NCBI GenBank assembly: GCA_964016885.1
Contig: OZ024745.1
Span: 119,474,001 to 119,538,000, forward strand
Length of the DNA stretch: 64,000 bases
Direction of reading: 5' to 3'
From: Eledone cirrhosa
Lineage: Eukaryota
A program made the translations under genes and the position numbers. Below are positions 2,681 through 2,893 of this stretch, one piece after another. Position 1 is the first letter of the stretch, and each line of letters starts with the position of its first letter. The notes under the pieces were generated by a model. That model saw only the letters and a program-made list of their open reading frames with translations, ran no database searches and had not been told where the DNA came from.

Positions 2681-2893
2681 GAACGAGTAGGACCCCGAAG
2701 GCTGAGCTCAAGCCGTTTCGACGGCTAATTCTGGACTAAATTAGTCCAGACATTTAGTCCAGAATTAGCCGTCGAAAGGGCTTGAGCTCAGCCGTCGGGG
2801 TCCTACTCGTTCCTATTACCCACTCTACTACTCTAAGTATTGAGTACTTTTGTGCGTTATGGTCCACCTGGTTCTTTACTACATTTCCTTCGT
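2681..2893 (+). mobile_element. Fold-back element family A, copy 1 (putative Penelope pLTR-derived), between (TA)n tracts
   Basis: Inverted arms 2681-2741 / 2752-2812, then a unique tail to (TA)n. Same sequence at 42516-42724 and 43521-43712. Contains the 3' half of an HHR: ..AATTAGCCGTC GAAA (C/G)GGCTTGAGCTCAGCCG TC. Confidence 0.8.

What the first reader, a model, noticed from the sequence alone, without database searches (positions are those of the whole stretch)
2681..2893. Family A always folds back inside hammerhead stem II, deleting the CUGANGA half
Seen: three copies (2681, 42516, 43521) have different short-arm ends and different apex junctions (ctggactaaattagtccagacatttagtccag; ctggactcaattagccgtccag; ctgtacag). 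All turn within the hairpin GACGGCTAATT-gagtccag-AATTAGCCGTC that precedes GAAA-CGGCTTGAGCTCAGCCG-TC. Inference: these are independent insertions in which the nascent cDNA self-primes on the ribozyme's own stem II, so the ribozyme structure acts as the second-strand primer or template-switch hotspot and not only as a cleavage device.
Basis: partly seen in the sequence, partly recalled or inferred. Interest (0 to 1): 0.8.

Follow-up and report, generated by a model that had tools for sequence, protein, structure and literature searches.

The report
Head-to-head Penelope stubs at transcript start
These palindromic inserts in TA repeats are short stubs of a very abundant Penelope-like retrotransposon; they likely form when two DNA copies, primed from opposite target strands, run off the RNA's likely capped start inside its ribozyme and are joined head to head, which would explain how such elements get their inverted ends.

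Summary
The three fold-backs are real and belong to a Penelope-like element (RT + GIY-YIG ORF; 28,415 exact matches to a 29-nt tail word). The apex hotspot is real but not universal: 60 of 100 position-ordered copies stop between -8 and +9 of one A (AGT[A/C]CAG); 9 run more than 90 nt further, some kilobases. Native stem II is CGGCTA/TAGCCG around a ~30-nt insert, and the missing core half is YTGANAA (mostly the known U3-A8 variant); CTGANGA was found in 0 of 44 unfolded arms. True stem-II snap-back products: 0 of 227 apexes. Arms often carry an untemplated G before that A, which sits in an initiator-like motif 230 nt upstream of the ATG; 7 loci carry it on both arms. The tail-less arm often holds sequence that the tailed arm lacks. 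Best reading: the apex is the capped transcription start, which splits the ribozyme, and two internally primed cDNAs (+58, +138) are joined. No RNA data were available to confirm it.

The parts
2681..2741 (-). Copy 1, tail-less arm (element positions +57 to -4)
   Evidence: register from unfolded copies
2742..2750 (+). Copy 1 apex: templated duplicate of -1..+7 plus one extra base
2751..2893 (+). Copy 1, tailed arm (-5 to +138); +1 A at 2756 in an initiator-like TTAGTCC
   Evidence: initiator consensus recalled
2763..2773 (+). 3' strand of hammerhead stem II only (native 5' strand and YTGANAA core half absent)
2774..2796 (+). GAAA, stem III with palindromic loop, predicted GUC cleavage site after 2796
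   Evidence: cleavage inferred
2797..2813 (+). 3' strand of stem I and its extension; +58 (2813) is the inferred internal RT start used by tail-less arms
2814..2893 (+). 80-nt 'tail' (5' UTR upstream of the ORF in the parent); +138 is the second inferred RT start
42517..42654 (-). Copy 2, tailed arm, exactly +138 to +1
42655..42663 (-).
42664..42720 (+). Copy 2, tail-less arm (+2 to +58)
43523..43579 (-). Copy 3, tail-less arm (+58 to +2)
43576..43712 (+). Copy 3, tailed arm (+2 to +138); arms share the palindromic GTAC at 43576-43579, no loop
2652..2678 (.). (TA)n flank (target); further tracts at 2894-2991 and around copies 2 and 3
   Evidence: 90 of 123 copies have (TA)4+ on both sides, one empty-site-like homolog holds a TA tract

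Best explanation
Family A copies are short head-to-head stubs of a Penelope-like retrotransposon whose apex likely marks the capped 5' end of the element's RNA, where two separately primed cDNAs would run off and be joined. Shown: parent ORF with RT and GIY-YIG; fixed outer ends at +58 and +138; apex edge at one A (+1) inside the stem II insert of a variant hammerhead, 230 nt before the ATG; untemplated G or oligo-A next to +1 on either or both arms. Inferred: the pLTR promoter starts transcription at about +1 (cluster -4..+1), so the 5' copy of the pLTR lacks the UUGANAA half and cannot cleave itself. The RT (likely a dimer) nicks both strands of a (TA)n target and starts at two internal sites, usually on one RNA. 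When it loads on the 5' copy, both cDNAs run off the cap after 58 and 138 nt. Their 3' ends are then joined by template jumping or microhomology end-joining, with trimming (+2..+9) and small templated inserts. Loading on the 3' pLTR copy would give the minority of long copies with scattered apexes; a few of those templates appear to be cut at GUC.
For: Parent and architecture. Sharp edge: of 71 tailed arms reaching +9, 60 stop by -8; of 11 passing -8 only 2 stop before -90; 59 of 77 inverted arms stop in the same window. Extra G, subfamily with native C at -1: G 24, T 7, A 3 among 34 non-native bases in 100 listed rows (counted by eye; 20 G not explained by the other arm). Unexplained G before +1: 20 of 55 junction arms, versus before +2: 5 of 97 (Fisher p=1e-6 on by-eye counts). 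Genome counts in the other subfamily: G 760, C 547, A 188; in 30 contexts each, about 15 G are untemplated while most C and A come from the opposite arm or its A-tail (by eye). G never sits on unfolded upstream sequence (0 of 24, 0 of 30), so it is not a master variant. Seven distinct loci have the G on both arms, spacers 1-30 nt; a 1-nt spacer cannot be a hairpin loop. A-run followed by T-run at the apex in L212, L219, L233. Inverted arm reaches >=8 nt further 5' in 19 loci, tailed arm in 9; non-overlapping arms in L055, L088, L097, L113. Arms of different subfamily in L125, L228, L259. Literature: two internal RT starts define the tail, both strands are nicked and extended, dimer predicted, hammerhead cleavage not needed (PMC11167929); TSS lies in the pLTR (PMC2377424, PMC8557442); extra G at full-length L1 5' junctions reflects capping (PMC11702581).
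Against: No RNA holder could be laid, so the TSS and cap are inferred only. In the TTAG subfamily the G test is not significant (8 of 61 vs 5 of 97, p=0.13). The scripted control found G in 23 of 59 unexplained bases at +2..+13, so G is common at other ends too, and its G-versus-A test was uninformative (p=1.0). Many arms end at -1..-4 or +2..+9 rather than +1; a second start at -4 was not clearly supported (about 4 unambiguous G in 100 rows). No Penelope-type DPE (RGACGTGY) at the expected place (read). The G is usually preceded by T (20 of 24), matching the native -2 base, so read-through with misincorporation at -1 is not excluded. 103 of 106 arm pairs are the same subfamily and 4 share private variants, as fold-back also predicts. 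Deletion or centre inversion after insertion could create some asymmetries (L139, L141, L142 look like deletions).
Confidence: 0.66

Rival explanations
1. Run-off at the same RNA end, but a single cDNA then snaps back on itself through the small quasi-palindrome around +1 (ATTC-AGTAC-AGAAT) and copies itself to the TA at +58; odd apexes arise later by deletion or centre flipping in the palindrome.
For: A cDNA ending at -4 has its last 3 bases paired with probability about 0.4. GGCTAATTC|AGTCC is the commonest apex class (about 36 of 100 rows). Arms are nearly always concordant (103 of 106). Templated snap-back inserts exist (window copy 2). Self-priming was proposed for PLE junction palindromes (PMC3846280).
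Against: The mirror apex with the tail-less arm longer is as common (8 vs 8). Also against: double-G loci with 1-nt spacers, loop-free palindromes (copy 3), non-overlapping and chimeric arms, and loci with two tailed arms (L093, L142).
Confidence: 0.17
2. The apex is a structure-dependent RT stop or nuclease cut in the stem II insert of an uncapped, longer RNA (ribozyme structure as hotspot), followed by joining of two cDNAs; the G is a general terminal-transferase product.
For: +1 lies in a predicted hairpin extending stem II. G also occurs at other ends. The edge is spread over -4..+9.
Against: RT has already unwound stems I, III and the 3' strand of II by then. The edge tracks one A across subfamilies whose insert sequence differs. 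The G is positional: 14 of 19 unexplained rows with C at +1 still have G at -1 (by eye). The initiator-like context also favours a transcription start.
Confidence: 0.1
3. One reading: the nascent cDNA self-primes on the ribozyme's own stem II.
For: A cDNA that has copied both strands of stem II does fold it, and the apex lies within the stem II domain.
Against: The predicted product (inverted arm joined to the native loop-II insert) is in 0 of 227 apex loci. No tailed arm of 100 ends between -20 and -90. The cited hairpin is the inversion itself.
Confidence: 0.03
4. The folded unit is a MITE- or SINE-like element amplified whole from a few masters.
For: Fixed outer ends; some apexes recur (up to 7 of 227).
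Against: Copies with 100% identical long arms have many different apexes; 166 distinct apexes in 227 loci.
Confidence: 0.04

Closest known systems
EN+ Penelope-like elements, Penelope/Poseidon type (inverted 5'-truncated pLTR plus optional tail; PMC8557442, PMC3846280)
   Same: RT followed by C-terminal GIY-YIG, partial-tandem pLTR, inverted truncated copy head to head, tail on one end only, (TA)n targets, hammerhead in pLTR
   Different: Tail is 80 nt rather than 30-40; most insertions are sub-250-nt stubs pinned to one base; clade placement was not tested by a tree
PAc (Poseidon, Anolis) in vitro mechanism (PMC11167929)
   Same: Two internal RT start sites bounding the tail, both target strands primed, uncleaved hammerhead RNA as template
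   Different: Here the starts lie in a 230-nt 5' UTR, not in the ORF; the paper's parts that I read do not treat the 5' apex or how the two products join
U3-A8 hammerheads of Cercyon PLEs and others (PMC4209133, PMC3088659)
   Same: Type I topology, U3-A8 core, G10.1-C11.1 pair, palindromic loop 3
   Different: Long stems II and III and a ~30-nt stem II insert; one subfamily has a C3-A8 mismatch; the inferred TSS cuts the motif in two
L1 twin priming and cap-derived extra G (PMC11702581)
   Same: Second target strand primes internally; join by microhomology or end-joining; extra G at complete 5' ends
   Different: L1 twin priming gives non-overlapping inversion; here both cDNAs usually copy the same 58 nt, giving an inverted duplication
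Non-LTR retrozymes (10.64898/2026.07.22.740005)
   Same: Short PLE-pLTR-derived, non-coding
   Different: Retrozymes are tandem direct repeats with complete hammerheads; these are inverted half-ribozyme stubs

Membership tests
EN+ Penelope-like element | Single ORF, RT followed by C-terminal GIY-YIG | tested here: met
   738-aa ORF from the ATG in L062 with YRDD and YIGLT motifs; Atlas hits 0.96-0.99 to HTH_animal/DUF8422/GIY-YIG/RVT_1 clusters; Pfam scan itself gave 0 families
EN+ Penelope-like element | pLTR formed by partial tandem, direct and inverted | tested here: met
   L062 direct 267-nt repeat; L063 direct plus inverted
EN+ Penelope-like element | Optional tail on one end | tested here: met
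   ends at +58 or +138; 80 nt, longer than the 30-40 nt described
EN+ Penelope-like element | Placement in Penelope/Poseidon clade by RT phylogeny | not tested
   no reference PLE proteins were fetched
Type I hammerhead ribozyme (unfolded pLTR) | Three-way junction, stems I-III | tested here: met
   MFE of L038 is the junction, 92.5% of cells paired in 17 copies; two other subfamilies fold differently, z -0.35 to -1.58
Type I hammerhead ribozyme (unfolded pLTR) | Core CUGANGA...GAAA...NUH | tested here: inconclusive
   CTGANGA 0 of 44; U3-A8 variant 37 of 44 with N7 free; C3-A8 in 5; GAAA and GUC intact; Rfam no match
Type I hammerhead ribozyme (unfolded pLTR) | Covariation in stems | tested here: inconclusive
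   0 two-sided changes; copies 91% identical
Type I hammerhead ribozyme (unfolded pLTR) | Self-cleavage at GUC | not testable with these tools
   indirect: about 18 of about 52 junction rows start at +41/+42, 4 with both arms at +42 (by eye; G-run microhomology inflates this)
Type I hammerhead ribozyme (window copies) | Complete core on one strand | tested here: not met
   5' core half and 5' strands of stems I and II absent
Non-LTR retrozyme | Tandem direct units each with a complete hammerhead | tested here: not met
   inverted stubs, half motif
Pol II initiator promoter at +1 | Capped RNA ends at the site | not testable with these tools
   no RNA holder listed; motif match (YYANWYY, recalled) and extra G are indirect

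The most novel reading that the evidence does not exclude
This PLE places its transcription start inside its own hammerhead, so the 5' pLTR copy is a disarmed half-ribozyme while the 3' copy is complete. A dimeric RT twin-primes one RNA, the second cDNA displaces the first, and the enzyme jumps cap-end to cap-end, leaving on the order of 17,000 genomic snapshots of the reaction that makes PLE inverted ends, including a record of cap read-out and misreading of the cap-adjacent A.
Probability: 0.4. Interest if true: 0.8.

Novelty: new variant of a known kind. Interest (0 to 1): 0.6.

Why it matters
How PLEs make head-to-head inverted ends, and what their hammerheads do, are stated as open in the papers read (PMC8557442, PMC11167929); self-priming on an antisense template was the proposal in PMC3846280. 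This family gives thousands of base-resolved junctions that favour sense-strand twin priming with run-off at a capped end, and it suggests why RT can read through the cleavage site: the 5' copy lacks half the ribozyme. It names the minimal RNA (138 nt), both start sites and the target for a direct in vitro test.

Tried and rejected
Rfam on the window: only AT-repeat and hairpin miRNA look-alikes, no hammerhead; on an unfolded copy: nothing. CTGANGA..GAAA scan of the window: nothing at family A. Pfam 0 families and PDB nothing significant for the ORF. Covariation test uninformative. Second start at -4: weak. Scripted G control: uninformative by design, since A is native at most control positions. 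Sequencing runs: no RNA holder listed. Contigs of four runs (one study, possibly the source sample) show arm-to-arm joints and the TA flank after +58, which argues weakly against a long-read assembly artefact but says nothing on RNA ends. Trans- or cis-splicing at the acceptor-like YAG at +1/+2 was rejected: no shared leader precedes the G. A master variant with G at -1 was rejected (0 unfolded carriers). Empty-site search gave one informative case. Earlier-findings look-up returned nothing. PMC7353768 gave no passage; PMC13000458 passages were not about caps.

Full report
Observation. The three copies are present as described and are the only family A copies in the window. Each is (TA)n - short inverted arm - apex - long arm - (TA)n. 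Numbering the A of AGT[A/C]CAG as +1, the short arms end outward at +57/+58 and the long arms at +138. Copy 1's arms reach -4 and -5 with a 9-nt insert between them. Copy 2's reach +2 and +1, with a templated 8-nt insert and an extra G. Copy 3's share the palindromic GTAC (+2..+5) with no loop.

What family A is. The window lies in a 3.0-Gb genome. A 29-nt word of the long arm's tail has 28,415 exact matches. Longer copies lead to a parent with a partial-tandem pLTR and a 738-aa ORF from the ATG at +231 (L062) carrying YRDD and YIGLT motifs. Pfam gave no family and PDB nothing significant, but the Atlas placed it at 0.96-0.99 next to HTH_animal/DUF8422/GIY-YIG/RVT_1 clusters. The pattern of an inverted truncated pLTR, a tail on one end and (TA)n targets is the described PLE architecture (PMC8557442, passages; PMC3846280, passages). 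Clade placement was not tested.

The ribozyme. Unfolded copies read ACCCC - YTGANAA - G YT CGGCTATTY - about 30 nt - AAWTAGCCGT C - GAAA - CGGCT TGAGCTC WGCCG - TC - GGGGT. One subfamily folds into the type I three-way junction as its MFE; two others do not, and z-scores are weak (-0.35 to -1.58). Pairing is 92.5% over 17 copies with no two-sided covariation, and Rfam finds nothing. Cores among 44 parsed of 52 arms: TTGATAA 19, TTGACAA 14, CTGAGAA 5, TTGAGAA 4, ATGAGAA 2, CTGANGA 0. U3-A8 is a known active covariant (PMC3088659, passages), already reported in PLE hammerheads (PMC4209133, passages). So the motif is hammerhead-like, activity is untested, and the subfamily of window copies 1 and 2 often has a C3-A8 mismatch.

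Where apexes fall. I took the first 100 tail matches along contig C1, which are unselected for apex. Tailed arms ended at -8..+9 in 60, +10..+40 in 15, +41..+46 in 5, beyond +46 in 9, -99..-9 in 3, and beyond -100 in 8. Of 81 inverted-arm calls I dropped 4 as self-matches inside unfolded copies; 59 of the remaining 77 ended at -8..+9, and 66 had their outer end at +57..+63. Of 71 tailed arms reaching +9, 60 stop within 17 nt; of 11 passing -8, 2 stop before -90. Opposite-strand pairs up to 7.8 kb apart exist. The hotspot is sharp, but 'always' is false. Extrapolated, about 17,000 copies are such stubs.

A cDNA self-priming on stem II must first copy its 5' strand (about -40..-32); it would fold and would leave the native insert between the arms. 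This product was found in 0 of 227 apex loci (loci partly selected for short apexes), and none of the 100 unselected tailed arms ends between -20 and -90.

Why +1. The site lies in TTAGTCC, TCAGTCC or TCAGTAC, which resembles an initiator (consensus recalled), 230 nt before the ATG. PLE start sites are known to lie in the pLTR (PMC2377424, passages; PMC8557442). I saw no Penelope-type DPE. In the subfamily with native C at -1, 100 listed arms gave 45 unfolded, 21 C, 24 G, 7 T and 3 A at -1 (by eye; first 30 printed); 20 of the G are not explained by the other arm. Before +2, unexplained G was 5 of 97 (by eye); Fisher p=1e-6. In the TTAG subfamily the same test gave 8 of 61, p=0.13. Genome counts there were G 760, C 547, A 188; about 15 of 30 G contexts were untemplated, while most C came from the opposite arm and most A from an A-run on it. 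A scripted control over all loci found 21 G and 4 A at +1, but also G in 23 of 59 unexplained bases at other positions, so the excess is real but not absolute. A second start at -4 was weakly supported at best. An extra G at complete 5' junctions is attributed to the cap for L1 (PMC11702581, passages). No RNA data could test this.

One cDNA or two. Seven distinct loci carry the G on both arms, three with a 1-nt spacer. Three apexes have an A-run abutting a T-run. After dropping the 4 self-matches and one two-tailed locus counted twice, the inverted arm reaches at least 8 nt further 5' in 19 loci and the tailed arm in 9; three of the 19 look like later deletions. Some loci have non-overlapping arms (L055, L088, L097, L113) or two tailed arms (L093, L142). 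Arms are the same subfamily in 103 of 106 pairs (22 of 24 unselected, 6 expected at random), 4 share private variants, and 2 of the 3 discordant pairs are clear chimeras (L259 is a third). This fits two priming events, usually on one RNA. It agrees with PAc biochemistry: two internal starts bounding the tail, both strands nicked and extended, a predicted dimer, and no need for hammerhead cleavage (PMC11167929, parts 1-2 of 4). Concordance alone also fits fold-back, and palindromes can rearrange after insertion, so that rival stays at 0.17.

Ribozyme footprint. Among about 52 junction rows in 100 listed tailed arms truncated at +36..+47, about 18 start at +41/+42, the predicted GUC site; four have both arms ending there (by eye; the other rows were small indels). 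This suggests occasional cleavage of longer precursors, but microhomology with the G-run inflates it.

Mechanism. Shown: parent, ends, apex edge, additions, arm relations. Inferred: TSS and cap at +1; a disarmed 5' half-ribozyme; RT loading on the 5' or 3' pLTR copy giving stubs or long copies; twin priming from (TA)n (90 of 123 copies have TA tracts on both sides, and one empty-site-like homolog holds one); end-to-end joining.

Novelty. Inverted pLTRs, tails and U3-A8 cores are known. I found no paper tying PLE apexes to a capped start inside the hammerhead, or to twin priming, in searches (listings and abstracts, plus the passages cited). PMC3846280 instead proposes self-priming on an antisense template. 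The library lacks most subscription journals, several older PLE papers were not read, and no supplements were opened; these could bear on the claim. The retrozyme preprint (10.64898/2026.07.22.740005, part 1 of 5) describes tandem complete-ribozyme units, which these are not. Verdict: new variant of a known kind, interest 0.6.

Noticed in passing
G000 rows; L334, L337, L339, L342: Arms reading G-C-GTCCAG in place of G-A-GTCCAG recur (14 of 19 unexplained rows with C at +1 have G at -1, by eye): possible RT misreading of the cap-adjacent A. Rival: a minor master with C at +1 (3 unfolded rows show it).
   Followed up: partly
L212, L219, L233, L096, L141: Long A-runs added where arms stop at +1, sometimes on both cDNAs; terminal addition or telomerase-like slippage on the native U-run.
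   Followed up: partly
window 2992-3196 and 32118-32383: A second fold-back family in (TA)n with the same long-arm/short-arm layout that keeps a CTGAGGA..GAAA core with a palindromic CAATTG loop in its arms; apexes 6 and about 45 nt upstream of the core.
   Followed up: partly
window 13109-13525, 63196-63625, 14056-14190, 32397-32907, 11973-12633: Further asymmetric fold-back units between TA tracts, probably other PLE or similar families.
   Followed up: no
L093, L142: Loci where both arms carry the tail; rare compared with tailed plus tail-less pairs, suggesting coordinated choice of the two start sites.
   Followed up: partly
L062 1900-650 (minus strand), L064, L066: The parent's long 3' UTR holds a tandem array of AT-rich units of about 30 nt whose copy number varies between copies.
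   Followed up: no
L325-L327: Three tandem copies of a stub spaced about 200-230 bp, probably a local duplication.
   Followed up: no
L332 (G000:C1:25028953): ORF-internal sense sequence joined directly to +2 of the pLTR; possible template jump onto an RNA or cDNA end.
   Followed up: no
element -10..+2 (e.g. L062 4354-4343): The apex context also resembles a 3' splice acceptor (pyrimidine run + YAG); no spliced leader or exon was seen upstream in junctions.
   Followed up: partly
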